Shown here: positions 9,868 through 37,498 of the stretch, in pieces
How positions within the stretch are numbered: the stretch's first letter is position 1
Layout: each line of letters begins with the position of its first letter
IMG/VR virus record: IMGVR_UViG_3300007351_000001
Source of the DNA: a virus
Lineage: Duplodnaviria; Heunggongvirae; Uroviricota; Caudoviricetes
Length of the DNA: 64,000 bases
Strand: one strand, 5' to 3'
Notes under the pieces: generated by a model
Databases searched by the model: none
What the model saw: the letters and a program-made list of their open reading frames with translations, nothing else
What the model was told of the DNA's origin: nothing
Position numbers and translations under genes: made by a program

Positions 9868-10396
9868 CTGCAGACTTCTTGAATGCCCGTAAAGTATGCC
9901 GGGTCGGCCACCGTTGCGCAACCGCATTTGCAGCGACCAGCTCCCAGCTCGGTTTGGCCGCGTGTTCGGGGAGCAAGAAGCGCAGGGCGCCGGTTGGCAG
10001 TTGGATCACGTTGAGCGCAGCAGGGTCTGCGATGCAGACGCGATACGCCTTGGTGTACGCGAGCCGGCGCCGCGGCAGGTGCAGCCGCACCGGTACGCCC
10101 TCCGCGTAGAGCCCACCGTAGCCGTTCGAGCCGAAGGACAGCTCGTACTTCTGCGCCTCTGCGGCAGCGGCGAGCGTGCGCCAGGCCTTGGACTTGCGCT
10201 TCATCCAGCGAGCACGTGGGCGCGCCGTACGCGCGGTTTGGCGCACTGCGCTCCGCGCGGCTTCCCAGATCTCCTTCAACCCGTAGCGCTGCAGCATCTG
10301 GCTCGCGGCTTCACGTGTCCGCAGCCCCGCCTGATCCGCGATCGCTTGGAGTGTCAGCCCCCGTTTCGCGCAGCTCTGGGCCTGCGCGCGGGTCAT
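9845..10396 (-). CDS. HTH DNA-binding protein (183 aa), sigma region-4-like N-terminal HTH
   Basis: MTRAQAQSCAKRGLTLQAIADQAGLRTREAASQMLQRYGL; ATG at 10394-10396 with GAGGAGG RBS; paralogous to the next gene. Confidence 0.65.
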   Translation of the reverse strand: MTRAQAQSCAKRGLTLQAIADQAGLRTREAASQMLQRYGLKEIWEAARSAVRQTARTARPRARWMKRKSKAWRTLAAAAEAQKYELSFGSNGYGGLYAEGVPVRLHLPRRRLAYTKAYRVCIADPAALNVIQLPTGALRFLLPEHAAKPSWELVAANAVAQRWPTRHTLRAFKKSADARKRST

Positions 10397-11033
10397 GCTT
10401 TTCTTCCCCACCACAACCTCCTCCACCTCGTTCGGCGCCCGCCTCGGGCGCACTCTCATCCGCGACCGCTCGCCACGCTTCTCGAATGCGTGCGGCCGTC
10501 GGCCATCGTTCCGCCGGCAATCTCCCCTCACGAAAATACCGATACCGTGGTCCGATCTCGTCTGGCAGCACGAAATAGCGTCGTTTGTCTGGAAACACAA
10601 CGACATGGAGCGCGCGGCTCTTGATGTGGATGTGGAAGTACCGGGCCGCGGCCCGCGCCTCACCGTACGCGTACGACTTCGCCACGACGTGCACCCGCAC
10701 CGGACCGCCCTCGATGGTGACGCTGGCATTTGTCGAGCGCACGGTGAGGCCGTGCGCAACGGCGTCGTCAACGAGCCGGCGCAACTCGGCGCCGTTGCGC
10801 TGCCCGCGCTTACGCGAGAGCGTCTTGTTCAGTGTGCTCGTCGCGCGCTCGACCCGTCGCTGCGACTGCCAGCGCGGATAGACGCCGTGCTTCACGAGCA
10901 GTTGACGAGCGCGTTCCCCCGTGACACCCAACCGCGCACCGAGGGTGCGCAAGTCTGGTACGGGCCGTTCATCAACTGCAGCGAGGATCAGGGTACGGGC
11001 GTCGCGCTTACCACCGCCCCCGGACGTAGTCAT
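10311..11033 (-). CDS. HTH DNA-binding protein, paralogue of 9845..10396 (~240 aa)
   Basis: DLRTLGARLGVTGERARQLLVKHGV HTH, then a domain similar to the neighbour (GGPVRVHVVAKSYAYGEARAAARYFHIHI vs GVPVRLHLPRRRLAYTKAYRVCI). C-terminal ~28 codons overlap the next gene. Confidence 0.6.
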   Translation of the reverse strand: MTTSGGGGKRDARTLILAAVDERPVPDLRTLGARLGVTGERARQLLVKHGVYPRWQSQRRVERATSTLNKTLSRKRGQRNGAELRRLVDDAVAHGLTVRSTNASVTIEGGPVRVHVVAKSYAYGEARAAARYFHIHIKSRALHVVVFPDKRRYFVLPDEIGPRYRYFREGRLPAERWPTAARIREAWRAVADESAPEAGAERGGGGCGGEEKHDPRAGPELRETGADTPSDRGSGGAADT

Positions 11034-11599
11034 TGTAGGTCCACCGTTGTCCCGATCGGTGGTCGACCACGCCGTCCGATCGAATCGTCCGACGTTTGTC
11101 GCCGCGCATGCCGGAGCCGATCTGTTGCCGGCGCTCCGTCTGCCGGGCCGTGGCGTGCGACTGCTGTAGGCGCTCCCACAACCGCGCTCGCAGGACGGTG
11201 AGTGTTCTGATGCTGGGAACGCTCCGACTCGATGCGCACGCGCACCTGTGTCGGGCGGTGGGTCATCTGGATAGCGGAGGCGGTCTTGTTGCGGTGCTGC
11301 CCGCCGGGGCCGGACCCCGTGGTCGCGATGACGTCGAGGTCGTCGTCCCGAATGACGAGCTGCGGCGCACTCGGCTCGGCGAGTACGGCGACGGTGATGG
11401 TGCTCGTCTGAACACGCCCGCGCCGTTCGGTCGGCGGCACGCGTTGCCAACGATGCCCGCCCGCTTCGTGCATGAACACAGTCTCGGCGTTTGGTCCGGT
11501 CACGCGTAGGATCGTGCTACCTGACCGCCGGTCGATGACAGTGCAGTCAAAGACAGTGGTGTTGCGCGAGGCGGGCGTAAATGCCCGCTTGATCGTCAA
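11030..11599 (-). CDS. peptide chain release factor RF1-like protein lacking domain 1 (189 aa; GGQ motif, PxT-type tripeptide PPT)
   Basis: FMHEAGGHRWQRVPPTERRGRVQTSTITVAVLAE and DLDVIATTGSGPGGQHRNKTASAIQMTHRPTQVRVRIESERSQHQN align with RF1 domains 2-4. TTG start at 11599; GAAGGAGGAG lies 18 nt upstream. Confidence 0.7.
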   Translation of the reverse strand: MTIKRAFTPASRNTTVFDCTVIDRRSGSTILRVTGPNAETVFMHEAGGHRWQRVPPTERRGRVQTSTITVAVLAEPSAPQLVIRDDDLDVIATTGSGPGGQHRNKTASAIQMTHRPTQVRVRIESERSQHQNTHRPASAVVGAPTAVARHGPADGAPATDRLRHARRQTSDDSIGRRGRPPIGTTVDLQ

Positions 11600-11613
11600 C
11601 GAGGAGCTTGGCG

Positions 11614-11853
11614 TCAGCTCCTCCTTCTGCGGCTCGAATCTCCAAGATCATCCTCGGCCTCTCCTATCCCGTGTTGAATGCTGTCCTCAGCCATCTGCCA
11701 CGCCATGGCGCGCATTGACACCGTAGCATGCTGGACCGGCATGCGAGCGGCTTTACAGAGATCCGTCAAGTGCTCGCGATAGAACCGTTCCAGGACCTGG
11801 CGGCGTCCCACTCGTCGACGCCGCCAGGTCCAGAGTTGTTGGAGCCACTTCAC
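11614..11853 (-). CDS. hypothetical protein (79 aa)
   Basis: ORF track only; weak. Confidence 0.35.
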   Translation of the reverse strand: MKWLQQLWTWRRRRVGRRQVLERFYREHLTDLCKAARMPVQHATVSMRAMAWQMAEDSIQHGIGEAEDDLGDSSRRRRS

Positions 11854-12527
11854 GCGCCGGAAGAACTGTTCGCGGCGAGTGATGGGCTGTGTGCGTCCGT
11901 GGCCGGCAGCGGCTGCGTACTCTGCCCCGCGTCCACTGCTGGCGAGAACGTAGGGTCCAGTGCCGGCGGCGCGCTCTCCTGATCGCGCGTGTCAGGGGTG
12001 TCGGTGGCCGCGGGATCCGCTGGCTTCGGTGCCTCGACGATCTTTCCGTTCACCTTCGGCGCGTAGAGGTTGCTGACCACGTACACGCCCTTGCGCTCGA
12101 TCACGACCTCGCCCGCTTCGACCATGCGGTAGAAGGTCCCCTTGACGACGTTCATGTCACGCAGCCCCATGCCGAAGTGCTTCAGCTCGTCGGTAGTGAA
12201 GCGCTTCTTGCCGTCGGCCGCTTCCGTCATCCCGTCCATCCAGGTGCGAAGCTGCCCCAGGTACGGACGCTCGGCGTACGGCATGCCGCGGCTGAACTTG
12301 CGGCTCGTCTTGCGCGTGCCCGGTGGTGCGCTGGCACGCGGTGCCGGCGACGCTGCGGCCGTACTCGGTGTCCCGCCGATCAGCGCCTGCATCTCATCGA
12401 GGCACTCTTGCGCCTTCGCGCGGTGCCCGGCAGCGATGAGGTCGTGCTCTTCTGCCTTGAGCGTGTGCTGCTGTAGCTCGCGAGAGAGCTTCTCGATCCT
12501 CGCCGCGCGCTCGCTTCCCTCAGCCAT
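11850..12527 (-). CDS. hypothetical protein with N-terminal coiled coil and disordered Pro/Ala/Ser tail (~225 aa)
   Basis: ATG at 12525-12527 (MAEGSERAARIEKLSREL...). Confidence 0.6.
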   Translation of the reverse strand: MAEGSERAARIEKLSRELQQHTLKAEEHDLIAAGHRAKAQECLDEMQALIGGTPSTAAASPAPRASAPPGTRKTSRKFSRGMPYAERPYLGQLRTWMDGMTEAADGKKRFTTDELKHFGMGLRDMNVVKGTFYRMVEAGEVVIERKGVYVVSNLYAPKVNGKIVEAPKPADPAATDTPDTRDQESAPPALDPTFSPAVDAGQSTQPLPATDAHSPSLAANSSSGA

Positions 12528-14191: not shown

Positions 14192-14396
14192 GATCTCTCC
14201 TTCTGTCCCAAAAGACGTCGGACGGGCTGTGGATCTGACACCTCACTTCTCCATACGCGGACGCGTGACGGCTTCTATGTCGGCTCCCGCGTGCCACCCC
14301 TCACCTACCTATTCCGGCCAGGAACGGGTTTTCGTGGAAGCGGCCAAAAGATTCTGGTAGGGCAGGTGGCCGAGCGAGCGTGAAAGGGGTGTGCTG

Positions 14397-15209
14397 ATGG
14401 CGTCCGTGGCGGTGGGAATCGTCGGGTACAACGATCCTGGAATGCTTGGGCAGACGTTGGACGCCGTCATGGCGACCGTCGCGTCCGATGTGCCGGTTTT
14501 CGTCTACGACGACGCGTCGTGGGCGGCGAACGTGCGGATGATCTCGCAGCGTCCCGAGTCGAAGGTCTTCTTCGACAACCCGTGGGTGGATCCCAACAAC
14601 CCGCCAGGCTTTTACCATGCGCACATCCCGAAGCTGTCGGTGATCGCGAGCCCAGTGAACCGTGGCTCCGCGTACGGCCGCAACGAGCTGTGGCACGCCG
14701 CGGAGTTCTACGGCATCGAGCGCATGGCGACGATCGACATGGACATGCGCGTGCATCCGGGCTGGTTGGACGCGCTCATGGGCGTGATGGACCGCCACGA
14801 CGACTGCGGCATCTCCACCTTCACCTACTGCAACGATCACGGCGGGCGCTTCCCGGTCACCCCGGCCGGCCAGGACCTGAAAGTCGCCGAGACTCCGTCG
14901 ATGTGTTGGCTCGTGCGGATCGCGATGCTGAACGACTGTCTCGGGCCGGACACGGTCTGGGGCATGGACACGCGAATGGAGTTGTTCTCGCACGACTCTG
15001 AGTTCTCGCAGCGGATGAAGCGCTGCTCGCGCTGGCGTCAGTATCTGAGCCCGGAGCCGCTCATCAGCGAGTTCGTTCAGCACCACAGCGTGAAGACCGG
15101 CAACAGTGTCACCTCGGCCGAGGCCGCGGCGCGGCGGGAGCGCGACTGCAAGATCTGGGGCGAGATGAACGGCAAGCGCGGCTGGGAAGACGGCAAGACC
15201 GACGTGTGA
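14397..15209 (+). CDS. glycosyltransferase family 2 (GT-A fold)
   Basis: VGIVGYNDPGMLGQTLDAVMATVASDVPVFVYDDAS N-terminal GT2 signature with DxD-like motifs; AAAGGGG RBS before ATG 14397. Confidence 0.75.
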   Translation: MASVAVGIVGYNDPGMLGQTLDAVMATVASDVPVFVYDDASWAANVRMISQRPESKVFFDNPWVDPNNPPGFYHAHIPKLSVIASPVNRGSAYGRNELWHAAEFYGIERMATIDMDMRVHPGWLDALMGVMDRHDDCGISTFTYCNDHGGRFPVTPAGQDLKVAETPSMCWLVRIAMLNDCLGPDTVWGMDTRMELFSHDSEFSQRMKRCSRWRQYLSPEPLISEFVQHHSVKTGNSVTSAEAAARRERDCKIWGEMNGKRGWEDGKTDV

Positions 15210-15481
15210 GCCTTGTGGCCCGCCAACCCAACACCGCCGGCTGGCACCTCGTGTACAGCTCGTTCGACTCGCTGGAGAACCACCACAGCGACGCTGTGGT
15301 GCAGACCTGGGAGACTCTCTCGCTGTCGAGCCTCGCCGAGCATGCGCAGGCGCGCTCGACCGCCACTGCGCGGTGGCGCTCCCTTCTCTCCCACCGGTAC
15401 GCGGGCTGGGACGATACGCTCTACCCGCGTGACCCGAGACTCGTCTACGTCGACGATCTCGCGTTCATGAGCGGGGAATGA
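15206..15481 (+). CDS. hypothetical protein (91 aa)
   Basis: GTG start overlapping preceding stop; plausible composition. Confidence 0.5.
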   Translation: MSLVARQPNTAGWHLVYSSFDSLENHHSDAVVQTWETLSLSSLAEHAQARSTATARWRSLLSHRYAGWDDTLYPRDPRLVYVDDLAFMSGE

Positions 15482-15849
15482 GCCGGCGCGCGATCGAGGA
15501 CCGGCTCTTCAGGCCGGGGCAGGTCGGGTACGCGTCCCAGCGTTGCGGTGATTGCCGGCGACCGATCGCTGGCTTCGAGCCTCTGTACCATCGCGGCCAA
15601 CGCATCTGCGTACGCTGCTATCTCCGTGCGGAGGCCGACTATTACGGCAGCGGACGCTGCGGCGGGTGCGAGCACTGCGGGTCGTTCGACTACGTGTTCA
15701 CGCCGACAGCGCAGTACCCTAGCCGACCTGTCCCGATGACGTGCGAGGAGTACGAGGCTGGTGGTGGAGGTGGTTGTGGAGCGGCGGACAGCGATGTGGC
15801 GCATGTGCCCCGTGTGCCGGCTGAAGGTGCAGAACCACAAAGATGGTGA
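15478..15849 (+). CDS. Cys-rich hypothetical protein (123 aa; several CxxC pairs); C-terminal Gly run may mark a frame change
   Basis: ATGA overlap with previous gene; QRCGDCRR, CVRCY, CGGCEHCGS motifs; tail after EYEAGGGGG is low-complexity. Confidence 0.45.
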   Translation: MSRRAIEDRLFRPGQVGYASQRCGDCRRPIAGFEPLYHRGQRICVRCYLRAEADYYGSGRCGGCEHCGSFDYVFTPTAQYPSRPVPMTCEEYEAGGGGGCGAADSDVAHVPRVPAEGAEPQRW

Positions 15850-15955
15850 AGAGGTCTTCGACCGCGGCTTCAAGCAGCTCGTGCACCGGCGCGCCTGCAT
15901 GCACCGGTACCGACAGACACGACGCCGCGCTCGCAAAGGGAAGGAGCAACGATGA
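15794..15955 (+). CDS. small Cys/His-rich protein (53 aa; MWRMCPVCRLK...HRRACMHRY)
   Basis: Alternative frame overlapping the end of 15478..15849; ends with ATGA overlap onto the GT4 start. Confidence 0.4.
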   Translation: MWRMCPVCRLKVQNHKDGEEVFDRGFKQLVHRRACMHRYRQTRRRARKGKEQR

Positions 15956-16938
15956 GGATCGGAATGGGCGGGCACATCTACCCGCTACCACCGCGCGGCT
16001 ACGGTGGCGTCGAGCGCGTCGCCGCCTGGTGGTGCGACGAACTCACGCGCCGTGGGCACTACGTGCATATCTTCGGGCATCCCGACAGCTCGTGCGCGCA
16101 CGACCGACTGACCCCCGCGTACGCGCAGCAACACGTCGATGGCTTCGGGCCGGCCTACGCGCAGCTGGGCGACGACCTCGACCTGATTCACGACAACTCG
16201 GACTCGCACCCGTCACCGATGCGTTGGTGTCGGCCCGGCGGGGTCCAGCGACCCTTCGTGCACACCGTGCACGCGTGCGTCTGGCACCGCGGTAGTCCCT
16301 GCCCGGTCTTCCTTTCGCAGAACCAGGCGCGCTGGTTCGGTGCCGAGAACCCGGTGATCGCGCACAACGGCTTCCCGACTGACGCGTTCACCGTCGAGAC
16401 CAACAAGGAGGACTTCTTCCTCTGGTGCGGTTCGCTGCGGACCTGCAAGGCACCGGAGATGGCGATCCAGCTCTGTGAAGAGACCGGCGAGCGCTTGAAG
16501 ATCATCGGTCCGATCCAAGACGGCCGCTATCACCACTTCCCGCAGTCGTACCCGCGTGGGGGCCAGATCGAGTACTTGGGCGAGATGGGCGCGCAGCGCA
16601 TGGAGTACTTCCGCAAGGCGAAGGGGTTCCTCTACACCTGCTCGCAGGACTGGATGGAGGGGATGTGCCTCGTGCTCTGCGAGGCGATGCTCTCCGGCAC
16701 GCCGGTGATCGGCCTGGTGACACCGAACAACACCATCGTCGAAGAGGTCGTGCAGAATGGGCTCGGTGGGTACGCGTGCAAGGACTACGAGACGATGCGC
16801 GGCGCGATCACCAACGGCCTCTACCGACTCTGCTCGCCGCAGGAATGCCGCGAGAACGGGGAGCGATTCTCGATCGAGCGCACCGTCGATCGCTACCTGC
16901 AGATCTACCAGGACGCGCTCGGCGGGAAGGTGTGGTGA
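15952..16938 (+). CDS. glycosyltransferase family 4 / GT-B fold (328 aa)
   Basis: GGVERVAAWWCDELTRRGHYVH N-domain and CEAMLSGTPVIG (EX7E-type) C-domain; strong AAGGGAAGGAG RBS. Confidence 0.8.
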   Translation: MRIGMGGHIYPLPPRGYGGVERVAAWWCDELTRRGHYVHIFGHPDSSCAHDRLTPAYAQQHVDGFGPAYAQLGDDLDLIHDNSDSHPSPMRWCRPGGVQRPFVHTVHACVWHRGSPCPVFLSQNQARWFGAENPVIAHNGFPTDAFTVETNKEDFFLWCGSLRTCKAPEMAIQLCEETGERLKIIGPIQDGRYHHFPQSYPRGGQIEYLGEMGAQRMEYFRKAKGFLYTCSQDWMEGMCLVLCEAMLSGTPVIGLVTPNNTIVEEVVQNGLGGYACKDYETMRGAITNGLYRLCSPQECRENGERFSIERTVDRYLQIYQDALGGKVW

Positions 16939-17216
16939 TGCCGATCGGACTCGAAGTCGACATGCTGCCGCAGGAGCGGTGGCCAGAAGCGCCGCCGCAC
17001 ATGCAGTACCTCGTCGAAAGAGAAACGCGCGATGGGGTGCCAACCGGAATCGGGTGGAACACGTCGCTCGGTTACTTCGTGATCCAATCGTCCGGACAGG
17101 GTCCGTACCTCATCGCGCAGGAGCGACACACCGACGAACGCCTGACCAGCGCGTCGTGTTGCTGCCAGACGTGCATTGAGCAGGCGCGTCGCGCACTCGC
17201 CATGGAGGAACTGTGA
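16938..17216 (+). CDS. hypothetical protein (92 aa)
   Basis: ATG overlapping the GT4 stop (TGATG); protein-like. Confidence 0.55.
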   Translation: MPIGLEVDMLPQERWPEAPPHMQYLVERETRDGVPTGIGWNTSLGYFVIQSSGQGPYLIAQERHTDERLTSASCCCQTCIEQARRALAMEEL

Positions 17217-17332
17217 CGCTCCTGACTCGCCTGGCGCGGACGATCTGGTACAAGCTCGACGGCATCGGGTGGGACGTCCCACACGGGCCGTTCACGCCGA
17301 CGTGGCGTGAGGCCTGGGAGGAAGCGGAATGA
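17213..17332 (+). CDS. possible small protein (39 aa)
   Basis: GTG start overlapping upstream stop (GTGA); ends ATGA into next gene; short. Confidence 0.3.
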   Translation: MTLLTRLARTIWYKLDGIGWDVPHGPFTPTWREAWEEAE

Positions 17333-17553
17333 GCAGTTCCATGTACTACCGCCAGTGCGTGCTGCGGGCTGGCTGCGAACAGCAGGTGCGCTGGATCCCG
17401 GAGACCTTCGCCCGCGTCGGCAAGTGGATCGTCGTCAAGGAGGACGGCTCCAACTGGTGTGTGAAGGAAGTTGGTGCAATGCGCGTCAGCGAGGAGTACC
17501 TTGCCGAACACGAACGAGACCACCTGCACCAGCGGGAAGCCTCGGACGTGTAA
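17329..17553 (+). CDS. hypothetical protein (74 aa)
   Basis: ORF track; stop immediately precedes tRNA-Phe. Confidence 0.55.
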   Translation: MSSSMYYRQCVLRAGCEQQVRWIPETFARVGKWIVVKEDGSNWCVKEVGAMRVSEEYLAEHERDHLHQREASDV

Positions 17554-17626
17554 GGCGAGATGGCAGAGTTGGTCAACGCGCCGGTCTGAAAAGCCGGACA
17601 TCTCGGTTCGATTCCGAGTCTCGCCA
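17554..17626 (+). tRNA. tRNA-Phe (anticodon GAA)
   Basis: Perfect acceptor GGCGAGA/TCTCGCC, U8, anticodon stem CCGGT/GCCGG with loop CTGAAAA, T-arm CTCGG-TTCGATT-CCGAG. Confidence 0.8.
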
Positions 17627-17646
17627 CTTGTTCGTGGAAGGGTTGT

Positions 17647-17721
17647 GGTGGCTGTAGCTCAGTTGGCTAGAGCGCGTGACTGTGGCTCACGAGGTCGAGG
17701 GTTCGATTCCCTCCAGTCACC
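17647..17721 (+). tRNA. tRNA-His (anticodon GTG) with G-1
   Basis: Extra 5' G pairing with C73; anticodon stem CGTGA/TCACG with loop CTGTGGC; T-arm GAGGG-TTCGATT-CCCTC. Confidence 0.8.
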
Positions 17722-17739
17722 CTTCTTTCGGAGGTGGGG

Positions 17740-18480
17740 ATGGTGGACGTGGCGGTGATCATGCCCGTGTACAACGAGCGGGCATGTCTGCATCAGGTGA
17801 TCGAGGAGTGGGTCGCGCTCTTGAAGCCGCTCGACGGCGTGCTCGTGCTCTGTGATGACGGCTCGACCGACGGCAGCGACGACGTCTGCCGAGAGTGGCA
17901 ACGGCTCGAACCGCAGCACGTCGTCGCCCGACGGCACGAGAACGTCGGCCACGGGCCGACCGTGTACTGGGGCTACCGGTACGCGCTCGACGAGCTGCGC
18001 GCGTGCTACGTCGCCCAGGCGGACTCTGACGGGCAGTTCCCCCCAGCCGGCCTCGACGAGCTGCTGAAGCACCGCCGTGGCGGTGTTGTGCTTGGCATCC
18101 GTCGGGATCGCCAGGACCCGCTGATCCGCCGGCTGCTCTCGAAGGCGATGCGCCGGATGAACTATGCCCTCTTCGGGGTGTGGGTCGAGGACGCCAACTG
18201 CCCGGTGCGCGTCATCTGGTCGGGCTACCTCGAACGCGTACTGCCGATGATCCCCCCGATGACGTTCGCACCGAACGTCTTGCTCTCCCTGCGCGCCGCG
18301 AAGGACGGCCGGCTCTTCACCAAGCCGATCCCCCACCGGCCGCGTGCCACCGGTACTGTGACCATCAACCGCCGCCTCCTCACGGTCTGCCTCCGCAACC
18401 TGGTCGAACTGCTTGCCTTCCGCCGTAACGGATTCCGTCGTGCGTTGGACGATCGTACGCGCACTCAGCGTCGGCATTGA
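17740..18480 (+). CDS. glycosyltransferase family 2, polyprenol-phosphate sugar transferase (DPM-synthase/GtrB-like)
   Basis: VIMPVYNERACL...LCDDGSTDGSDD motif; GGAGGTGGGG RBS before ATG 17740. Confidence 0.75.
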   Translation: MVDVAVIMPVYNERACLHQVIEEWVALLKPLDGVLVLCDDGSTDGSDDVCREWQRLEPQHVVARRHENVGHGPTVYWGYRYALDELRACYVAQADSDGQFPPAGLDELLKHRRGGVVLGIRRDRQDPLIRRLLSKAMRRMNYALFGVWVEDANCPVRVIWSGYLERVLPMIPPMTFAPNVLLSLRAAKDGRLFTKPIPHRPRATGTVTINRRLLTVCLRNLVELLAFRRNGFRRALDDRTRTQRRH

Positions 18481-23965: not shown

Positions 23966-25183
23966 ATGCCAGATCAGAGTCTCAGTCTCGTCGAACTGCT
24001 CACCCGTTTCGCGAGGCTGGAGTACAACGTCCTCATGACGGGGCACACCGGCGTCGGCAAGACGACGGTGGGGCTCCACGTGTGCGAGCGCATCTGCTCG
24101 TACCAGGTGAAGTTCTTCAATGCGGCCATCATGGACCCGCAGGTCGAGCTGCTCGGGATCCCGACCCCAGACCTCGACTTCGAGCGCCAGCGCGAGCGGA
24201 TCTTGCGGGTGTTGATCGACTTCGGGTTGAAGGGGACCTTCCGGCCCTTGGAGAGCGAGACGCCGACCGAGACCTACTCGCGCGTCACGCAGCTGGTCGA
24301 CACCGCGTTCGACCGGCCGAAGTCGCTGCAGTTCCTGCGCCCGAAGTTCATCGACGAGTGCGACGTGTTCTTCGTCGACGAAATCAACCGCGCCGAAGTG
24401 CAGACGCTGAACGGCATCATGGAGGCGATCCAGTTTGCCACGGTCATGGGCGATCGGCTGCCGCGCCTCAAGATGACCTGGGCGACGCGCAACCCCGACG
24501 GCGACGACATGGGCTACCACGTCCAGCGCATGGACCCGGCCTTGATCCAGCGGTTCCGGACCTTCGTCGAGGTCGACGCGCAGCCGGCGGTCGACATCCT
24601 CGTTGCGTGCGGGCCGATGCGCGAGGCAGTCGCTCGCAACCTGATCGAGTGGTACACCGCGCTGCAGGAGGGTGTGAAGCTGCACCTGCCGCCACGCCGC
24701 TTGGAGTACATCGGCAAGGCGTTCGAGGATGGGCTGCCGCTGGAGTTCGCCATCCCACCGTTGGTCGACGTCACCAAGCTGCCGCTCAAGAATCTGGAGA
24801 CCATGCTGCGCAGCGCGACCAAGTCGACGCTGGTCAGCAAGGATGACCTCTCGACGCCGGAGAAGCGCGCGGCCTTGATCGGGCGCATGAACGACGGCAC
24901 GGCCAAGGGGCTCAGTGTCACCGTGCAGGTGCAGAAGATCCTCTCGCACCCGACGGTGAAGCTGCACAAGTTGATCGAGTACGTCGAGGTCGTCGAGGCG
25001 ATGCGTTTGGAGACGCGTGTCGGTATGTGGGCCGCGATCGGCACGCGCCTGCTGAATCAGGTACCGGAGCCGGCCAAGTACGACTTCTCGCAGTTCGGTG
25101 CGCAGGAAGAGAGTGCGCGCCGTCTCTTCCGCGTCGCGATCCGCGACGGGTTCTACCAGGACGTGAAGCCGACGGACATCTGA
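23966..25183 (+). CDS. MoxR-like AAA+ ATPase (405 aa)
   Basis: Walker A GHTGVGKTTV, Walker B FFVDEINRA, MoxR-like C-terminal helical region. Confidence 0.85.
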   Translation: MPDQSLSLVELLTRFARLEYNVLMTGHTGVGKTTVGLHVCERICSYQVKFFNAAIMDPQVELLGIPTPDLDFERQRERILRVLIDFGLKGTFRPLESETPTETYSRVTQLVDTAFDRPKSLQFLRPKFIDECDVFFVDEINRAEVQTLNGIMEAIQFATVMGDRLPRLKMTWATRNPDGDDMGYHVQRMDPALIQRFRTFVEVDAQPAVDILVACGPMREAVARNLIEWYTALQEGVKLHLPPRRLEYIGKAFEDGLPLEFAIPPLVDVTKLPLKNLETMLRSATKSTLVSKDDLSTPEKRAALIGRMNDGTAKGLSVTVQVQKILSHPTVKLHKLIEYVEVVEAMRLETRVGMWAAIGTRLLNQVPEPAKYDFSQFGAQEESARRLFRVAIRDGFYQDVKPTDI

Positions 25184-26763
25184 TGACCATCGACTACTCC
25201 AAGATCCACCTGACCGGTGGCAGCCAGCACGAGCTGTGGAAGATCTCCCGGCCGTGTGACTGGCGCTGGCTGCCGCCGGGCTGGGATGACCCGCAGCGGG
25301 TCGCCTGGCGTCAGGAGCGCTTCGAGCAGGCGTTGGAGACGATTGACGCCGCTGCGGAGCACGACCTGTGGATGCAGCTGCGCTTCGCACAGCTCGGGAC
25401 GCCGAAGTTCCAGGCGCTCCCGATGCCGACGACGGCCGTCGGCCTGCGCCCGAACGGGCAGATCGAGTACGTGTTCCACCCGCGCTTCTTCGATCTCTGC
25501 GAGCCGGAGCGCTTGGTGTTCTCGATCGTCCACGAGCGCTTCCACGTCGACCTCGACCACCTGCGTCGCGGCATCGGCAAGCGGCGCAACTTGTGGAACA
25601 TCGTGATCGACATCGTCGACAATGAGTACTGTCACGCACTCGGCTTCCTGCCGCCGGAGATTGGCCGCGACTACTGGTCAATCGAGAAGCTGCTGCCCGG
25701 CTTCCGTGGCCTTGGGGAGGATGTCGGGGCCGTGGCGGACTTCCGCACGGAGTTCGACGCGACGCGCCTCTACGACTTCCTGTTGTCGATCATCGAGAAG
25801 ATCACCCTGCCGCCGTTCGCCGCGTTCGCTATGGACATAGGGATCGGCATGCCGATCCCGGATGAGGATGCCGACGACGACGAGTCGATACCGGGTCCTG
25901 GCGGGTCGGACGAGGGCGAGGGCGAGGAGGACGACGATGAGGGGAACGATCTTGGTCCCCCAATCTCGTGGTCGGACGTCGAGGAGGACCCACAGGATCA
26001 CAACGACTATCAGGACGACGTCGCGGCCAATGGCGGCGCCAACCCGTTTGGGGGTGGTGGTGGGGGTGCCGGCAAGGGCCGGGGAACCTTCGGCGACTCG
26101 ATCATGCCGGCAGTGGCCAAGTCGCGTTCGCACACCTGGCTCGACAACTTGGCTGATCGCGTGCACGGCGAGGTTGTGCGTCGCGTCGAGAAGCAGTGGG
26201 CGATCCCGCCGCGTCGGCTGGTCGGGAGCGGACTCTACCCGCATGTGCTCCTGCCGTCAGTTCGCCGCACCATCGTGCGCACCAAGTCGGTGGTGCTGAT
26301 CGGCGATTGCTCGGGCTCGATGGCCGGCGTGATCCCGAAGATGCTGCGCCTCTTCTCCGAGATGATCGACCACTTCACCAGCGGCCACATTCAGCGCAAC
26401 CCGGTGAAGGTCGATTCGTACGCGTTCGACGATGGGGTGTACCACTGGCCGAAGGAACTGATTCAGCGCGGCCGTGCTCCGCACTCCGGCGGGACCAACT
26501 TCCAGCGCGTGGCAAACTTCGTCGAGGGTCGTGACGTCACGCTGGAGTCCGGCCACGGCGGCGCTGGCATCCGCCTGCGGCAGCACCCCGACCTGGTCAT
26601 CGTGGTCACCGACGGTGAGGATCGCGCGCCGAAGATCAAGTACCCGGACAACTGGGTCTGGCTCTGCGTTGAGGAGCAGGAGTACCCTGCCTACGTCAGG
26701 CGCGACACCAAGGGCATCGGGCAGGTCGTGATGTATGGCGACGTCTACGACGGTTCCTTCTGA
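25180..26763 (+). CDS. DUF2201-type protein: N-terminal putative HExxH metallopeptidase-like domain plus C-terminal VWA domain with MIDAS (527 aa)
   Basis: ATGA overlap with MoxR gene; IVHERFHVDLDHL (HExxH); VVLIGDCSGSMAG (DxSxS MIDAS); long acidic linker DEDADDDES...GEGEEDDDEGND. Confidence 0.75.
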   Translation: MMTIDYSKIHLTGGSQHELWKISRPCDWRWLPPGWDDPQRVAWRQERFEQALETIDAAAEHDLWMQLRFAQLGTPKFQALPMPTTAVGLRPNGQIEYVFHPRFFDLCEPERLVFSIVHERFHVDLDHLRRGIGKRRNLWNIVIDIVDNEYCHALGFLPPEIGRDYWSIEKLLPGFRGLGEDVGAVADFRTEFDATRLYDFLLSIIEKITLPPFAAFAMDIGIGMPIPDEDADDDESIPGPGGSDEGEGEEDDDEGNDLGPPISWSDVEEDPQDHNDYQDDVAANGGANPFGGGGGGAGKGRGTFGDSIMPAVAKSRSHTWLDNLADRVHGEVVRRVEKQWAIPPRRLVGSGLYPHVLLPSVRRTIVRTKSVVLIGDCSGSMAGVIPKMLRLFSEMIDHFTSGHIQRNPVKVDSYAFDDGVYHWPKELIQRGRAPHSGGTNFQRVANFVEGRDVTLESGHGGAGIRLRQHPDLVIVVTDGEDRAPKIKYPDNWVWLCVEEQEYPAYVRRDTKGIGQVVMYGDVYDGSF

Positions 26764-27685
26764 TCGCATCACGCCGGTCAAAGCGACCGGCACTTTCAAG
26801 CCGGCGCTGTGGAACGACCGCGCGTACGTCGCCGAGGAGAAGCTCGACGGTGTTCGCGCGGTCGTGTACGCCACTGCGGCCGGCGCTCGTGTCATGGTTG
26901 GCGAGCGCGACATCACCGCCCAGGTCCCGCACCTGGGCGTGTTGCACGTGCCTGGTCTCGTGCTCGACGGTGAGCTAGTGCAGAACGCGCTGAGAAGCCC
27001 CGAGACCGACCACGTGCCGGGGATCGGCTCGGCCTCAGTCACCGGGATCGTGAACAGTTCGCCCGGTCGCGCCATCGAGACGCAGAAGCGCGACGGGTTC
27101 CTCAAGTTCTATGCCTTCGACTGCCTGCATGTGGGGCGCGTGGGGCGACTCAACATGCGCACGCAGTCGTGGGAGCGCCGTCGCGCTGCCTTGGTCGACG
27201 TTCTGGCTGGGCTACCACGCCCGATTGGCGACAACTACATCGCCGTCCCGGTCGCTGTACCGCCACTCACACGCGAGTTCTACCAACGCGTCGTGCTACT
27301 CGGGGGCGAGGGGGTGGTACTCAAGCACCGCGAACAGTCCTACACCGGCGTTGGGTGGGTGAAAGTGAAGTTCCGGACCACGTTGTCGGTAGTGATTGCC
27401 GGCATCAACCGTGACCGAGAATCGGTCGCCATCGCGGTCTACGAGGACGGCAAGCTCTCCTCGGTTGGTGATTGCGGGATCAAAAACACGCAGCTTCGTG
27501 CGCAGGCACAGTTGAAACCGCACACCTTGGTCGGTCGTGTGCTCGACGTGCAGGCGTATGCGGTCAGTACCCGCGGCAAGCTGCGCAACCCGATCTGGGA
27601 CCGTCTGCGGCCGGATCTCTTTCCGAAGGCGATCACGCGCGACAAGCTGATCGCGGACTTCGAGCAGGCGGTGGAGCACGCGTAG
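26735..27685 (+). CDS. ATP-dependent DNA ligase (316 aa)
   Basis: Motif I EEKLDGVRA (KxDG), LVLDGELV, VVLKHREQSY; overlaps previous gene by ~29 nt. Confidence 0.85.
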   Translation: MATSTTVPSDRITPVKATGTFKPALWNDRAYVAEEKLDGVRAVVYATAAGARVMVGERDITAQVPHLGVLHVPGLVLDGELVQNALRSPETDHVPGIGSASVTGIVNSSPGRAIETQKRDGFLKFYAFDCLHVGRVGRLNMRTQSWERRRAALVDVLAGLPRPIGDNYIAVPVAVPPLTREFYQRVVLLGGEGVVLKHREQSYTGVGWVKVKFRTTLSVVIAGINRDRESVAIAVYEDGKLSSVGDCGIKNTQLRAQAQLKPHTLVGRVLDVQAYAVSTRGKLRNPIWDRLRPDLFPKAITRDKLIADFEQAVEHA

Positions 27686-27907
27686 ATGACAGGGACTGTG
27701 GTAGTGGGGTTGGTGGTGGCGGTGCTGCAGCTCGTGGCGTCGATTATCGCGATGGCTGCGGCCGTACGGACGGTTCGTGCCACGCGAGCAGTGAAGATCG
27801 AAGTCGATCGCTTGATGGTGATGCGCTCGGAGATTGAGCTGGTCCGCCTCGAAATCGAGAGCGAGCTAGCGATGCACTACCAACCGCCGGCCGCGCACCT
27901 GCACTAG
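27686..27907 (+). CDS. small membrane protein (73 aa)
   Basis: ATG immediately after ligase stop; VVVGLVVAVLQLVASIIAMAAAV TM helix. Confidence 0.5.
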   Translation: MTGTVVVGLVVAVLQLVASIIAMAAAVRTVRATRAVKIEVDRLMVMRSEIELVRLEIESELAMHYQPPAAHLH

Positions 27908-27946
27908 GCGCTTCCTCCACTCTCCGCTTGAGTCCACCAAAGGCCT

Positions 27947-28624
27947 GTGCCAGACTTCCCGACCGCAGGCGTAGGGAGGGTGGCGGTGGTGGAGCACGAC
28001 GGTCGGCCACGTGATGGTCTCACGTATCGGTTGCCCATCGAGCAGATCCTGGCAGAGCAGGGTGCGGCGAAGCGCAGCCGCCTCTTCCGCCAGTACACCG
28101 ATGCCACCTACGCGTGGATCGACGAGGACTTGGAGTTCTTGCGAGCGTTCGAGGAACTCCCGCAAGGTCAGGACGTCGGCGTGCTGCGCAACATCGCCAG
28201 CATGCGCGGCGCGGAGAGCCGGCGCGATCTCGAACGCGAGTATGATCGGCTGAAGCTCCCACACCAGTGGACCGTCAACTGCCTGTGCGTCGACGGTCCC
28301 ATGCTGGCGCTCAACGAACGCGCGCTCGAAGCCTACATCGAGGCGAACTGCCCCATCGCCGTCGGACCGTTCCTCGACTACCTCTGGCGCAAGCAGTGGC
28401 GCATGGTCCCGACGCCGGAGTGGGAAGCCGTGGTCTACAACCAGTTGATGATCGGCTCGCGCCGCGTGTTCGTCCAGGACCAGGTCTACTACTTCCTCCT
28501 CCTCCCGGCGCCATACCTGATCGACGTGGGGTTCATCGAGTCTGCGGAGAAGCGTGAGGCGATCGTCTACGGGTGGTCGCCGATTGACTTGCCGCCAGTG
28601 ACCTGGCAGCAAAAGCGCCGGTGA
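27947..28624 (+). CDS. hypothetical protein (~215-225 aa; start uncertain, GTG candidates at ~27986-27989 after GGGAGGG)
   Basis: Protein-like ORF. Confidence 0.6.
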   Translation: MPDFPTAGVGRVAVVEHDGRPRDGLTYRLPIEQILAEQGAAKRSRLFRQYTDATYAWIDEDLEFLRAFEELPQGQDVGVLRNIASMRGAESRRDLEREYDRLKLPHQWTVNCLCVDGPMLALNERALEAYIEANCPIAVGPFLDYLWRKQWRMVPTPEWEAVVYNQLMIGSRRVFVQDQVYYFLLLPAPYLIDVGFIESAEKREAIVYGWSPIDLPPVTWQQKRR

Positions 28625-28628
28625 CGAG

Positions 28629-29006
28629 ATGCTTGACGAGGGGGGTCGTCAGTTCGCGCTGCATCGCGGCTTGCTGCAGTGGATTGAAGTCGTCGAGGAT
28701 CGTGGCGACACCGTCGTGATCAACCATCCCCAGCGTGGGGAGATGGTCACGCCGCGCGAGCTGTACGAGTGGGATGTCGGTTCGCTCGACGAGTACTTGG
28801 ATCGCCAAGTCGTGGTTGAGTCGCCGTTCGACAGCTCCGCGTTCGTCGTCGAGGCGTCCCCCATCGACTTGATCACGGACGGTGACGAGGACGAGCCGAC
28901 TGCGCTGCGCGAAGCGTTGCCAGACGCCGCGTCGTACGAGCACCTCCTCTCGCCAACTGAGCGCCGCTTCATGGCGAAGGGGTGGACGATCATTCCCTTC
29001 AAATGA
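28629..29006 (+). CDS. hypothetical acidic protein (125 aa)
   Basis: ORF track, protein-like. Confidence 0.6.
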   Translation: MLDEGGRQFALHRGLLQWIEVVEDRGDTVVINHPQRGEMVTPRELYEWDVGSLDEYLDRQVVVESPFDSSAFVVEASPIDLITDGDEDEPTALREALPDAASYEHLLSPTERRFMAKGWTIIPFK

Positions 29007-29151
29007 GCTATTGCGAATGATGCTCAATGAGTAGCAAGAACGCTTGCGCAAGATGAGATAATCAGTAGTATTTACAGGCGAGCATCAACCTGATAGTGCT
29101 CGTCGTCCTGTCATCAACTCAAGGGTGCTGACGTGTGTGGGAGAGGGTTGC
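29007..29151 (+). promoter_or_regulatory. AT-rich intergenic region with sigma70-like promoter elements upstream of the sigma-factor gene
   Basis: TTGCGC-N16-TAGTAT near 29040-29068; contains AGTAGTATTTAC related to the GAGTATTTTTA elements at 21.6 kb and 37.47 kb. Confidence 0.4.
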
Positions 29152-29703: not shown

Positions 29704-29712
29704 GGGCGGGGC

Positions 29713-31176: not shown

Positions 31177-31224
31177 TGACGAGAGGGTTCGGTCGATGAC
31201 TGGGTTGACGTGGTGGAGGATGGG

Positions 31225-32631: not shown

Positions 32632-32671
32632 GTTTCGCGTCATGTTTCATGTTTCACGTGACACGGTACGG
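32632..32671 (+). repeat. short tandem ATGTTTC repeat with perfect palindrome TCACGTGA
   Basis: ATGTTTCATGTTTCACGTGACACG directly upstream of the HNH-like gene. Confidence 0.3.
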
Positions 32672-34017: not shown

Positions 34018-34029
34018 TCGCATGCACGA

Positions 34030-34075: not shown

Positions 34076-34112
34076 TCCTCTTCGAGCGGCATCTATATCG
34101 GGTGAGGGTACG

Positions 34113-37445: not shown

Positions 37446-37470
37446 ACAAACCAAGCGCGAAGGGCGTGAA

Positions 37471-37487: not shown

Positions 37488-37498
37488 ATCCGTGGAGC

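What the first reader, a model, noticed from the sequence alone, without database searches (positions are those of the whole stretch)
11030..11599. N-terminally truncated RF1-like release factor encoded alongside a 10-member tRNA set
Seen: the 189-aa product has the GGQ peptidyl-hydrolase motif (SGPGGQHRNKT), a PxT-type tripeptide (PPT) in the codon-recognition domain, and RF domains 3/4. It lacks the ~110-aa domain 1 that binds L7/L12 and RF3.

Established: PxT specifies UAA/UAG recognition in RF1, and ArfB-type rescue factors retain only the GGQ domain.

Inference: the protein could be a streamlined release factor serving phage translation alongside the phage tRNAs, or a ribosome-rescue / anti-toxin-like factor. 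The long phage ORFs here are uninterrupted, which argues against stop-codon recoding in this genome.

The start is TTG, with a strong RBS 18 nt upstream.
Basis: partly seen in the sequence, partly recalled or inferred. Interest (0 to 1): 0.7.

Follow-up and report, generated by a model that had tools for sequence, protein, structure and literature searches.

The report
Phage RF1-like gene needing frameshift
The flagged ORF is the middle piece of a phage gene for a short RF1-type release factor that can only be made through a +1 ribosomal frameshift like the one in bacterial prfB, a design shared by most of its viral relatives and not found described for any RF1-type gene, although this particular copy also carries an 11-base frame-breaking deletion.

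Summary
The 189-codon ORF (11030..11599, minus strand) exists and does contain PPT and GGQ, but it is not the gene.

- **Gene structure.** Release-factor homology runs through three minus-strand frames, from ATG 11651 to TAA 11008.
- **First frame break.** It lies at CTT TGA C (11552..11546), the canonical prfB +1 frameshift heptamer, at codon 35. Of 80 IMG/VR relatives, 62 break at the same codon. Every one has CTT followed by a stop (TGA, less often TAG, rarely TAA), and most have GGAGG three bases upstream. The nearest relative (L001) has it too.
- **Second frame break.** This is an 11-nt deletion found only in the window. It puts the conserved C-terminal 64 codons out of frame, so it is a recent lesion or an assembly error.
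The "strong RBS" encodes the conserved AEGG motif of the same gene, and the TTG start is spurious.
- **The family.** It is about 220 aa long, lacks domain 1, is RF1-like in sequence and fold, and is essentially viral. It often sits inside phage tRNA arrays or next to tmRNA genes.

The papers I could search say frameshifting is known for prfB but not for RF1 genes.

Verdict: a new variant of a known mechanism, high interest, in a probably defective copy here.

The parts
11008..11651 (-). Whole RF1-like gene as reconstructed: ATG 11651 to TAA 11010..11008, read in three successive frames (214 codons)
   Evidence: Three-frame translation. The reconstruction matches Pfam PCRF 102-194/194 and RF-1 5-106/116, prfA model positions 106-318/347, and T. 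maritima RF1 residues 89-298 at E=7.5e-35.
11550..11651 (-). Segment 1 (frame of the ATG): 34 codons, MILEIRAAEGGADAKLLVDDQAGIYARLAQHHCL. This is strand 1 and helix alpha5 of RF domain 2.
   Evidence: It is homologous to residues 1-34 of all relatives. Differences from L001 concentrate at third codon positions of this frame, 19/34. AlphaFold pLDDT is 86-95.
11546..11552 (-). Shift cassette CTT TGA C: P-site Leu codon CTT (11552..11550), in-frame stop TGA (11549..11547), and the first +1-frame codon GAC (11548..11546)
   Evidence: The same heptamer occurs at the homologous codon in L001. CTT followed by a stop occurs in 66/66 frameshifted loci of the first set and 17/18 of the second. CTT is a rare Leu codon in this window, 68 of 1440 Leu codons.
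11204..11548 (-). Segment 2 (+1 frame): D35..N149. It contains the decoding loop RVPPTE (PPT 11429..11437) and GGQ (11297..11305).
   Evidence: Third-position differences from L001 are 60/110.
11197..11203 (-). Site of the second frame break. The window has ACTCACC where L001 has 18 nt (CGCGAGCTGGCGCTCTCG), a net 11-nt deletion at the start of helix alpha7.
   Evidence: DNA alignment A2. All aligned relatives have 3-4 more residues here, QN[KR]xTAL.
11008..11202 (-). Segment 3 (third frame): LTVLRARLWERLQQ...QIGSGMRGDKRRTIRSDGVVDH...YVRGRW plus the TAA stop. This is the rest of helix alpha7 and domain 4.
Evidence: All family-invariant residues are retained.
11030..11599 (-). Residues 1-17 and 133-189 are out-of-frame readings.
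11618..11627 (-). It encodes (A)EGG(A) of the conserved EIRAxEGG motif in segment 1.
   Evidence: The motif is conserved at protein level in all relatives.

Best explanation
**What it is.** The locus encodes a phage member of a virus-specific family of short (about 220 aa) RF1-type class-I release factors. They have domains 2-4 and lack domain 1.

**How it is expressed.**
- Translation starts at ATG 11651.
- After 34 codons the ribosome meets CUU UGA C.
- If host RF2 recognises the UGA, a 34-aa peptide is released.
- If recognition is slow, the P-site tRNA-Leu slips from CUU to UUU (+1), GAC is read next, and synthesis of the factor continues. This is the same mechanism as in bacterial prfB.

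**What follows from that.** Production of the phage factor is coupled inversely to termination efficiency at the cassette stop codon. In UGA-type genes such as this one, the stop is read by host RF2. In the UAG-type relatives, it is presumably read by RF1 and by the phage factor itself.

**What the product does.** The full-length product is predicted to release peptides at UAA/UAG without the domain that couples to RF3 and the L7/L12 stalk. It would be part of the phage's translation-support gene set, alongside tRNAs and, in relatives, tmRNA.

**This copy.** An 11-nt deletion after codon 149 throws the last 64 codons into a third frame. As the sequence stands, this copy cannot make a complete factor without a second +1 event. 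It is most likely a recently inactivated copy, or the deletion is an assembly error.

**Shown.** The homology across three frames, the cassette and its conservation, the deletion, the viral distribution, and the RF1-like fold.

**Inferred.** That frameshifting actually occurs, its regulatory logic, the codon specificity, and the biological role.
For: **Gene structure**
- RF homology is contiguous only if three frames are joined. Joining raises the Pfam scores from 57/42 to 70/67 bits and extends coverage to nearly both whole domains.
- The first junction is exactly CTT TGA C.

**Conservation of the cassette**
- L001, the nearest relative (78% aa identity), has the same cassette and then a single frame through to the end.
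- 62 of 80 IMG/VR relatives, plus 2 MAG contigs, switch frame at the same place: stop at codon 35 in every one (codon 36 only in L001). The P-site codon is CTT in 66/66. The stop is TGA in 51, TAG in 13 and TAA in 2. The base after the stop is C in 49, G in 15, A in 2 and never T. GGAGG or GGGGG lies 3 nt upstream in at least 40.
- The consensus of 59 unique sites is CGG AGG KGT CTT TGA C. The nine uninterrupted homologues lack both the SD-like run and CTT.
- A partly overlapping metagenome set adds 18 more cases.

**Selection on the frames**
- Differences between the window and L001 fall on third positions of the RF frame in all three segments.

**Identity and distribution**
- RF1 scores well above RF2 and PrfH by NCBIfam and by PDB sequence search.
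- AlphaFold gives pLDDT 79, and Foldseek's top hits are RF1, with TM 0.78 to 1rq0_A.
- The family is viral. There are 347 IMG/VR hits, but in 185,579 species genomes only three MAG contigs are family-like; the remaining hits, at roughly 34-49% identity, look like ordinary full-length prfA.
- About half of 60 loci place the gene inside or beside tRNA arrays, and three place it beside a tmRNA gene.

**Mechanism reference**
- The prfB mechanism and its elements are taken from PMC12421855.
Against: - The window's cassette lacks the SD-like stimulator (CAA CAC CAC TGT upstream), as does L001's, so frameshifting may be inefficient.
- The host is unknown. If it is an actinobacterium, PMC12421855 reports that M. 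smegmatis frameshifts poorly at the prfB motif.
- An RF1-type factor gated by an RF2-specific UGA has no obvious feedback logic.
- The second frame break has no recognisable slippery motif, so this copy may make no functional protein at all.
- No experiment of any kind supports frameshifting or release activity.
- The PxT loop is missing in L001 and in a few other lineages, so the family's function may not be uniform.
Confidence: 0.75

Rival explanations
1. The 11-nt gap is a sequencing or assembly artefact (or a minority variant). The real phage gene has only the programmed frameshift and is fully functional.
For: Segment 3 keeps every family-invariant residue and has no stop codon. Its differences from L001 are mostly synonymous in the RF frame, 31/62 at third positions, so any inactivation must be very recent.
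Against: An 11-nt deletion in non-repetitive sequence is not a typical read or assembly error. No second copy of this genome was found to compare it with.
Confidence: 0.2
2. One reading: the 189-aa ORF, started at TTG 11599 from the upstream GAAGGAGGAG, is itself the product. It would be a streamlined factor with the GGQ domain plus part of the decoding domain.
For: The ORF is open, and a purine-rich run lies 18 nt upstream.
Against: Seventeen N-terminal and 57 C-terminal residues have no homology to anything. The same DNA read in the other two frames is highly conserved RF sequence under purifying selection. The purine run encodes AEGG. Eighteen nucleotides is too long a spacing. This product would lack strand 1 and helix alpha5 and all of domain 4.
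Confidence: 0.03
3. The locus is simply a decayed pseudogene, and both frame breaks are random lesions.
For: There are two frame breaks in a 640-nt gene. The nearest relative has also lost the PxT loop. The gene looks horizontally acquired: homology to L001 stops at the start and stop codons, and none of 14 L001 neighbour genes has a homologue in the window.
Against: The first break is at the identical codon, with an identical CTT-stop heptamer, in 66 + 18 relatives, and with a co-conserved SD-like run. Random lesions do not do this.
Confidence: 0.05
4. The family consists of codon-independent ribosome-rescue factors (PrfH-like or ArfB-like) that clear ribosomes stalled by host anti-phage RNases, rather than true termination factors.
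For: The architecture lacks domain 1, as PrfH does; the prfH model aligns end to end, 1-197/200. The genes neighbour tRNA arrays, tmRNA genes and, in 7 loci, an RNA-ligase-like gene. Several lineages, including L001, have a shortened loop without PxT.
Against: The window copy and most relatives keep RVPPTE and the RF1-type Q/T third-base residues. The prfH score is 74.8 against a cutoff of 166.65, and the ArfB score is 25.7 against 100. No RtcB was found within about 4 kb. RF1 is far closer by both sequence and fold.
Confidence: 0.12
5. The downstream frame is translated by internal initiation, not frameshifting. Many relatives have an ATG in the +1 frame just after the G-rich AEGG codons, and gene callers start there (MPSSW...).
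For: Gene callers predicted such starts in P0024, P0027, P0081 and P0087.
Against: The window has no such ATG. That model does not explain the invariant CTT followed by a stop, the SD-like run at 3-nt spacing, or the avoidance of T after the stop. Residues 1-34 are conserved in the upstream frame and are structurally part of domain 2.
Confidence: 0.04

Closest known systems
Programmed +1 ribosomal frameshift of bacterial prfB (RF2)
   Same: - An early in-frame stop splits a class-I release-factor gene.
- The slippery P-site codon is CUU, followed by UGA and then C.
- In most relatives an internal Shine-Dalgarno-like GGAGG/GGGGG lies 3 nt upstream of CUU.
- The rest of the protein is in the +1 frame.
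- Intact versions without the cassette also exist (motif description in PMC12421855 and PMC3711429).
   Different: - The gene is RF1-type, not RF2.
- The site is at codon 35, inside domain 2 (about prfA model position 140). In prfB it is at about codon 26, in domain 1, which this family lacks. The cassette therefore appears to have been acquired independently (inference).
- The stop is UAG in about a quarter of cases (22 of 84). No UAG was found among 8,164 prfB motifs.
- With UGA the gene cannot sense its own product if its specificity is RF1-like.
- The carriers are viruses.
- The window copy has no SD-like stimulator.
Bacterial RF1 (prfA)
   Same: - It is the best sequence and fold match over domains 2-4.
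- It has a PxT-type tripeptide (PPT), GGQ, and the Q and T residues of the third-base pocket.
   Different: - It lacks domain 1, which is about 105 residues, and the last ~30 residues of the model.
- It scores 172 bits against an equivalog cutoff of 400.
- PMC12421855 and PMC5009743 state that no frameshift or early in-frame stop is known for RF1 genes.
PrfH / RF-H (partner of RtcB2; rescues damaged ribosomes)
   Same: It lacks domain 1, is about 200-220 aa long, and retains a version of the decoding domain (PMC6514570). The prfH model aligns over its full length.
   Different: The score is below the cutoff (74.8 against 166.65). PxT is retained. No RtcB is nearby. PDB PrfH is a much weaker match than RF1 (E=8e-12 against 7.5e-35).
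Phage-encoded RF1/RF2 in stop-codon-recoded phages (Lak, crAss-like, Jade; Borges et al. preprint 10.1101/2021.08.26.457843) and in huge phages (PMC7162821)
   Same: A release-factor gene carried by a phage, next to tRNA genes.
   Different: The window shows no recoding and no suppressor tRNA. Those papers, in the passages I read, mention neither loss of domain 1 nor a frameshift. A separate subgroup of relatives with in-frame GGY TGA A at the G-W position may belong to the recoded kind.
Giant-virus (Mimivirus/Megavirus) release-factor gene requiring a frameshift and a readthrough (PMC3521657, cited in PMC5009743)
   Same: A virus-encoded release-factor gene whose expression needs recoding events.
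   Different: It is a eukaryote-type factor in viruses of amoebae. It is unrelated in sequence and in the type of site.
ArfB (YaeJ) / ICT1
   Same: A GGQ peptidyl-tRNA hydrolase domain without domain 1.
   Different: ArfB has no decoding domain and uses a basic C-terminal tail. Here the decoding domain is present, and the ArfB model scores 25.7 against a cutoff of 100.

Membership tests
Class-I bacterial-type release factor superfamily (Pfam PCRF + RF-1) | Both Pfam domains score above their gathering thresholds | tested here: met
Reconstructed protein: RF-1 70.5 bits (cutoff 35) and PCRF 66.9 bits (cutoff 24).
Class-I bacterial-type release factor superfamily (Pfam PCRF + RF-1) | GGQ catalytic motif | tested here: met
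   SGPGGQHRNKT, with GGQ at 11297..11305. GGQ is invariant in alignment A1.
RF1 (prfA equivalog) | Full-length match above the NCBIfam equivalog cutoff, including domain 1 | tested here: not met
   NF001859 scores 172.4 bits against a cutoff of 400, and TIGR00019 scores 169 against 423. The match covers model positions 106-318/347 only, so domain 1 is absent.
RF1 (prfA equivalog) | PxT tripeptide and RF1-type third-base residues (Q before PxT, T after GR[IV][HQ]) | tested here: met
   The window has WQRVPPTERRGRVQTST. PPT or PPN is present in most relatives. Actual codon specificity was not tested.
RF1 (prfA equivalog) | UAA/UAG-dependent peptide release | not testable with these tools
   Needs an in-vitro release assay.
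prfB-type programmed +1 frameshift cassette | An early in-frame stop, with the remainder of the protein in the +1 frame | tested here: met
   TGA at codon 35. The +1 frame continues the RF homology.
prfB-type programmed +1 frameshift cassette | CUU slippery codon immediately before UGA, followed by C | tested here: met
   CTT TGA C at 11552..11546.
prfB-type programmed +1 frameshift cassette | Shine-Dalgarno-like stimulator about 3 nt upstream of CUU | tested here: not met
   The window has CAA CAC CAC TGT upstream, and L001 has CAT CAC GGT. The feature is met in at least 40 of 66 relatives, as GGAGG or GGGGG at 3 nt.
prfB-type programmed +1 frameshift cassette | Conservation of the site across homologues | tested here: met
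   66 of 84 loci in the first set and 18 more in the second have it at the same codon (codon 35; codon 36 only in L001).
prfB-type programmed +1 frameshift cassette | The gene product recognises the cassette stop codon (autoregulation) | tested here: inconclusive
   The product is RF1-like while the stop is RF2-specific UGA in the window. 22 of 84 relatives use UAG, which an RF1-type factor could sense. Specificity is untested.
prfB-type programmed +1 frameshift cassette | Measured +1 frameshifting | not testable with these tools
   Needs a reporter assay or mass spectrometry.
PrfH (RF-H) | NCBIfam TIGR03072 above its cutoff | tested here: not met
   74.8 bits against a cutoff of 166.65.
PrfH (RF-H) | Operon with an RtcB RNA ligase | tested here: not met
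   None of the 10 flanking ORFs (7.4-17 kb) matches RtcB in Pfam or PHROGs. No conserved protein neighbour was found across 84 loci.
PrfH (RF-H) | Absence of domain 1 | tested here: met
   The gene starts at the EIRAxEGG motif. In relatives, tRNA genes abut the start codon.
ArfB | GGQ domain only, plus a basic C-terminal tail; NCBIfam NF006718 above its cutoff | tested here: not met
   25.7 bits against a cutoff of 100, and a decoding domain is present.

The most novel reading that the evidence does not exclude
Phages carry their own domain-1-less RF1-type release factor whose synthesis is gated by an independently evolved prfB-like +1 frameshift cassette.

- UAG-type genes would be the first RF1-class autoregulatory frameshift.
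- UGA-type genes, such as the window's, would sense host RF2 activity, coupling production of the phage factor to the termination capacity of the infected cell.
- The repeated switching between UGA and UAG, with UAA avoided, would be adaptation of this sensor to different hosts.
- In one clade a phage tRNA with an 8-nt anticodon loop cognate to CUU(N) may promote the shift.
Probability: 0.4. Interest if true: 0.9.

Novelty: new variant of a known kind. Interest (0 to 1): 0.8.

Why it matters
**What the literature says**
- RF2's frameshift is the textbook case of autoregulatory recoding.
- Two papers I read state that no counterpart is known for RF1 genes: PMC5009743 (2016) and PMC12421855 (2025, a survey of more than 12,000 genomes).
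- The 2025 survey also found no UAG in any prfB motif.

**What this family adds**
- It is a large viral family of RF1-type genes with the same cassette at a different position.
- It uses UGA, UAG and rarely UAA at the cassette stop.
- That makes it a natural experiment on why release-factor genes acquire this device, and on whether the stop codon must match the product's specificity.
- It shows that gene callers systematically truncate these genes: database entries start at residue ~35 or with out-of-frame N-termini.
- It points to termination, and not only tRNA supply, as a step of translation that large phages tune.
- A release factor that works without domain 1 would also be of practical interest for engineered translation systems.

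**For this window**
- The practical message is a corrected annotation: one recoded gene, 11651..11008, carrying a frame-breaking 11-nt deletion.

Tried and rejected
- **Identifying the phage.** Megablast of 10500..12500 against 50,697 phage records found nothing. tblastn of the 578-aa ORF at 25027 found nothing. The DNA polymerase gave only ~25% identity hits. Phage and host remain unidentified.
- **Looking for close relatives.** Pattern scans with the single window protein in IMG/VR and in the metagenome collection found none. Only L001, from a Logan assembly, is close, so I could not check the 11-nt deletion in a second copy.
- **Neighbouring genes.** Pfam and PHROGs on 20 ORFs around the gene and around the tRNA clusters gave only glycosyltransferases and one family of unknown function. 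There is no RtcB, Pth or RNA ligase near the gene.
- **Conserved neighbours.** Clustering neighbour ORFs across 84 loci found no conserved protein partner. The best were an HNH-like protein in 11 loci and an RNA-ligase-like protein in 7.
- **Recoding in relatives.** A crude ORF-coverage test for TGA/TAG recoding was confounded by tRNA-dense, GC-rich loci. I discarded it as inconclusive.
- **The 8-nt-loop tRNA (anticodon CUGG) as rescuer of the second break.** I rejected this. There is no in-frame CCAG between the deletion and the stop, and in-frame CCA-G is not depleted in window genes, 55/129.
- **Known RNA elements.** The Rfam gathering scan of the window returned only the 10 tRNAs and no known recoding element.
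- **Synteny with L001.** None of its 14 neighbour genes has a homologue in the window.
- **Literature.** Six searches found no description of a phage RF1-like gene with a frameshift. One further search failed on a syntax error. The library is incomplete, so prior description elsewhere cannot be excluded.
Full report
**1. Observation**

The ORF 11030..11599 (minus strand, 189 codons, TTG start) is real as a mechanical ORF. It contains RVPPTE (PPT at 11429..11437) and SGPGGQHRNKT (GGQ at 11297..11305). Pfam RF-1 and PCRF both pass their gathering scores on it, so the resemblance is not chance. Ten tRNA genes are found by both ARAGORN and Rfam. They are spread over the whole 64 kb rather than clustered at the gene.

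**2. The gene is larger and spans three frames**

Translating the minus strand in all frames shows release-factor sequence in three successive frames:
- **Segment 1.** From ATG 11651: MILEIRAAEGGADAKLLVDDQAGIYARLAQHHCL, then a stop. This is the conserved start of RF domain 2.
- **Segment 2.**
- **Segment 3.** LTVLRARLWERLQQ...QIGSGMRGDKRRTIRSDGVVDH...YVRGRW, then a stop (TAA 11010..11008). This is the rest of helix alpha7 and domain 4.

Both frame changes are +1. Joining the three pieces has these effects:
- Pfam coverage rises to PCRF 102-194/194 and RF-1 5-106/116.
- The protein aligns to prfA model positions 106-318/347.
- It aligns to T. maritima RF1 residues 89-298 at E=7.5e-35.

The 'strong RBS' GAAGGAGGAG (11627..11618) encodes the AEGG of the EIRAxEGG motif. 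The real start, ATG 11651, is preceded by AGGAGAGG.

**3. The first frame break is a prfB-type programmed frameshift site**

Segment 1 ends at CTT TGA C (11552..11546). This is the heptamer on which ribosomes shift +1 in bacterial prfB (mechanism as summarised in PMC12421855 and PMC3711429).

The nearest relative is P0051, at 78% identity, on a 65.8-kb Logan contig (locus L001). It has the same heptamer at the homologous place and then one uninterrupted frame to the end.

A degenerate-pattern scan of IMG/VR gave 347 relatives. I analysed the best 80, plus two MAG contigs, L001 and the window:

| Feature | Count |
|---|---|
| Loci analysed | 84 |
| Switch to the +1 frame at this site | 66 |
| Stop at codon 35 (codon 36 in L001 only) | 65 of 66 |
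| Codon before the stop is CTT | 66 of 66 |
| Stop is TGA / TAG / TAA | 51 / 13 / 2 |
| Next base is C / G / A / T | 49 / 15 / 2 / 0 |
| GGAGG or GGGGG 3 nt upstream of CTT | at least 40 |

- The consensus of 59 non-identical sites is CGG AGG KGT CTT TGA C. The nine uninterrupted homologues have neither the G-rich run nor CTT, so the signal is selected at the nucleotide level.
- A metagenome scan, which partly overlaps IMG/VR, added 18 more cases: CTT in 17, and TGA 8, TAG 9, TAA 1.
- Many database proteins of the family cover only residues 35-214 or begin with out-of-frame N-termini such as MPSSWSRSRRRSTS. Gene callers have been truncating these genes.
- The window's site, like L001's and about ten others, lacks the SD-like run (…CAC CAC TGT CTT TGA C).
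- CTT is a rare Leu codon in the window, 68 of 1440.

**4. The second frame break is an 11-nt deletion private to the window**

- The DNA alignment with L001 (83% identity) shows CAGAAC-ACTCACC-GTCCTG in the window, against CAGAAC-CGCGAGCTGGCGCTCTCG-GTCCTG in L001.
- All relatives have QN[KR]xTALxxLRARLW here. The window is 3-4 residues short and out of frame.
- Downstream, every family-invariant residue is kept.
- The C-terminal segment was therefore under purifying selection for most of the divergence. The deletion is recent, or it is an artefact.
- I found no slippery motif there. The odd tRNA with an 8-nt anticodon loop (202..275) cannot act there, because there is no in-frame CCAG.
- L001 has its own in-frame 12-nt deletion that removes the PxT loop.

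**5. What the family is**

- **Identity.** It is RF1-type. Scores are prfA 172 bits, prfB 103, prfH 75 and ArfB 26. PDB sequence search gives RF1 E~1e-35, RF2 ~1e-16 and PrfH 8e-12.
- **Fold.** The AlphaFold model (pLDDT 79, pTM 0.69) matches RF1 chains best, with TM 0.78 to free RF1 1rq0_A.
- **Conserved residues.** The decoding loop WQRVPPTE[KR]RGRV[QH]TST keeps PxT and the RF1-type Q and T.
- **Missing domain.** Domain 1 is absent in every member. The gene starts at the EIRAxEGG motif, and in some loci a tRNA gene ends a few bases before the start codon.
- **Distribution.** The family is essentially viral. In one-genome-per-species collections only three MAG contigs carry it; the other hits, at roughly 34-49% identity, look like ordinary full-length prfA. 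Many carriers are contigs of 100-600 kb.
- **Context.** In about half of 60 loci the gene lies inside or beside tRNA arrays of up to 35 tRNAs. In three loci it lies beside a tmRNA gene. No suppressor tRNAs were seen, and no protein-coding neighbour is conserved.
- **The window.** It is a phage replication region with DNA polymerase, DnaB, primase, ligase and SSB. Its GC content is 64.8%. By a crude gene call its stops are about 80% TGA, 14% TAG and 6% TAA.
- **Mobility.** The RF gene looks like a mobile gene-sized unit. Homology to L001 begins at the ATG and ends at the stop, and none of L001's 14 neighbouring genes has a homologue in the window.

**6. Most likely mechanism**

*Shown:* the split gene, the cassette and its conservation.

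*Inferred by analogy with prfB:*
- Ribosomes pause with CUU in the P site and the stop codon in the A site.
- Termination releases a 34-aa peptide.
- Alternatively, slippage of tRNA-Leu onto UUU leads to reading of GAC and synthesis of the full factor.
- Output therefore rises when recognition of that stop is slow.

With UAG, the factor could autoregulate as RF2 does. With UGA, as in the window and in 59 of 84 cases, it would respond to host RF2 instead, unless these factors also read UGA, which is untested.

A rough NJ tree suggests the following:
- The cassette arose once.
- It was lost about five times.
- The stop switched between TGA and TAG roughly ten times.
- TAA, the necessary mutational intermediate and the one stop read by both RFs, stays rare.

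The product is predicted to catalyse UAA/UAG-dependent release without coupling to RF3 or the stalk, since domain 1 mediates that coupling (my own knowledge of RF structure). Its biological role alongside phage tRNAs and tmRNA is inferred.

For the window copy, no complete factor can be made from the sequence as given.

**7. Comparison with what is known**

- The cassette is the prfB cassette in every element except, in this copy, the SD-like run.
- It sits in an RF1-type gene, at a position about 110 residues downstream of where the prfB site lies. That region of prfB is domain 1, which this family does not have, so independent origin is the simplest reading.
- PMC12421855 reports that frameshifting is established for prfB and not for prfA. 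It found no conserved frameshift elements in 34 prfA 'pseudogenes' and no TAG among 8,164 prfB motifs.
- PMC5009743 says the RF1 counterpart is unknown, and notes only a giant-virus release-factor gene with recoding.
- Papers on phage-encoded RF1/RF2 and on RF evolution and PrfH do not mention this family or a frameshift in the passages I searched.
- It is not PrfH (score below cutoff, PxT retained, no RtcB). It is not ArfB.

**8. Verdict**

- The interpretation (domain-1-less RF1-like phage factor) is partly supported, but the gene model was wrong and the most interesting feature was missed.
- The locus is a probably defective copy of a recoded phage RF1-like gene.
- The family-level feature, a prfB-like +1 frameshift in viral RF1-type genes with UGA/UAG variation, appears undescribed in the literature available to me.
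- It is a new variant of a known mechanism.
- Interest: 0.8.

Noticed in passing
window 202..275 (-): This tRNA gene has an 8-nt anticodon loop, CUCUGGGU. ARAGORN reports a four-base anticodon CUGG, and Rfam scores it as tRNA at 52 bits. It sits next to tRNA-Arg(CCT). A G precedes the 5' end and C follows the acceptor stem. In-frame CCA-G is not depleted in window genes (55/129), so it is probably not an efficient quadruplet decoder.
   Followed up: partly
L023:1504-1581 and L043:2442-2516; 7-nt-loop versions at L014:1977-2054, L017 and L067:936-1014: These relatives carry a phage tRNA 1.5-2.5 kb upstream of their RF gene. Its anticodon loop is CUUAAGCA (8 nt, 'UAAG') or CUAAGCA ('AAG'), which is cognate to the CUU(N) shift codon. 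An expanded-loop tRNA reading the slippery codon could promote the +1 shift. It is confined to one clade.
   Followed up: partly
L080 and 15 metagenome loci (L177, L181, L185, L187, L189, L190, L193, L197-L200, L207, L208, L225, L232): This subgroup of short RF1-like genes has an in-frame 'GGY TGA A/C' at codon 34 with no frame change. It falls exactly where canonical RF1 has G-W. That suggests genomes reading TGA as Trp that carry a short RF1.
   Followed up: partly
L002, L005 (TGA) and L011 (TAG), codon 35: These have an in-frame stop at the cassette position, but with CTC, CTA or TAT before it and no frame change. They may be read through, or they may belong to recoded genomes. My ORF-coverage test for recoding was inconclusive.
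   Followed up: partly
L001:9980-10000; also L043, L050, L002, L028, L064: In several lineages the decoding loop is 4 residues shorter and lacks PxT (for example RWQEPSGGRVQTS in L001 and RWQEKSGGRMQTS in L043/L050). This may mean loss of, or a change in, stop-codon specificity.
   Followed up: no
L016:4669-5020, L033:3209-3567, L057:1062-1423: Phage-encoded tmRNA genes lie directly beside the short RF gene. L016 also has 34 tRNA genes within 8.6 kb.
   Followed up: no
window 11008..11651 compared with L001:9775-10417: The RF gene is 83% identical in DNA between two contigs. The similarity stops exactly at the start and stop codons, and the two share no other detectable gene within L001's 11.5 kb. 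This looks like horizontal transfer of a gene-sized unit between unrelated phages.
   Followed up: yes
window 11614..11853 (-) and 10311..11033 (-): The upstream 79-codon ORF would overlap the RF start by 38 nt. The downstream 240-aa ORF (ATG 11033, with a helix-turn-helix-like LGVTGERARQLL) overlaps the RF stop by 26 nt. Neither matches any Pfam or PHROG family.
   Followed up: partly
window 14391..18480 (+): Three glycosyltransferase-like genes (GT2 at 14391 and 17734, GT1/GT4 at 15952) flank the tRNA-Phe/tRNA-His pair at 17554..17722.
   Followed up: no
window 23966..39329 (+): This is a phage replication module: an ATPase, an HNH-containing 578-aa protein, an ATP-dependent DNA ligase, a helicase, DnaB, a primase, an 1110-aa DNA polymerase and an SSB. 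The polymerase is only ~25% identical to any of 50,697 phage records, so the phage is distant from cultured ones.
   Followed up: partly
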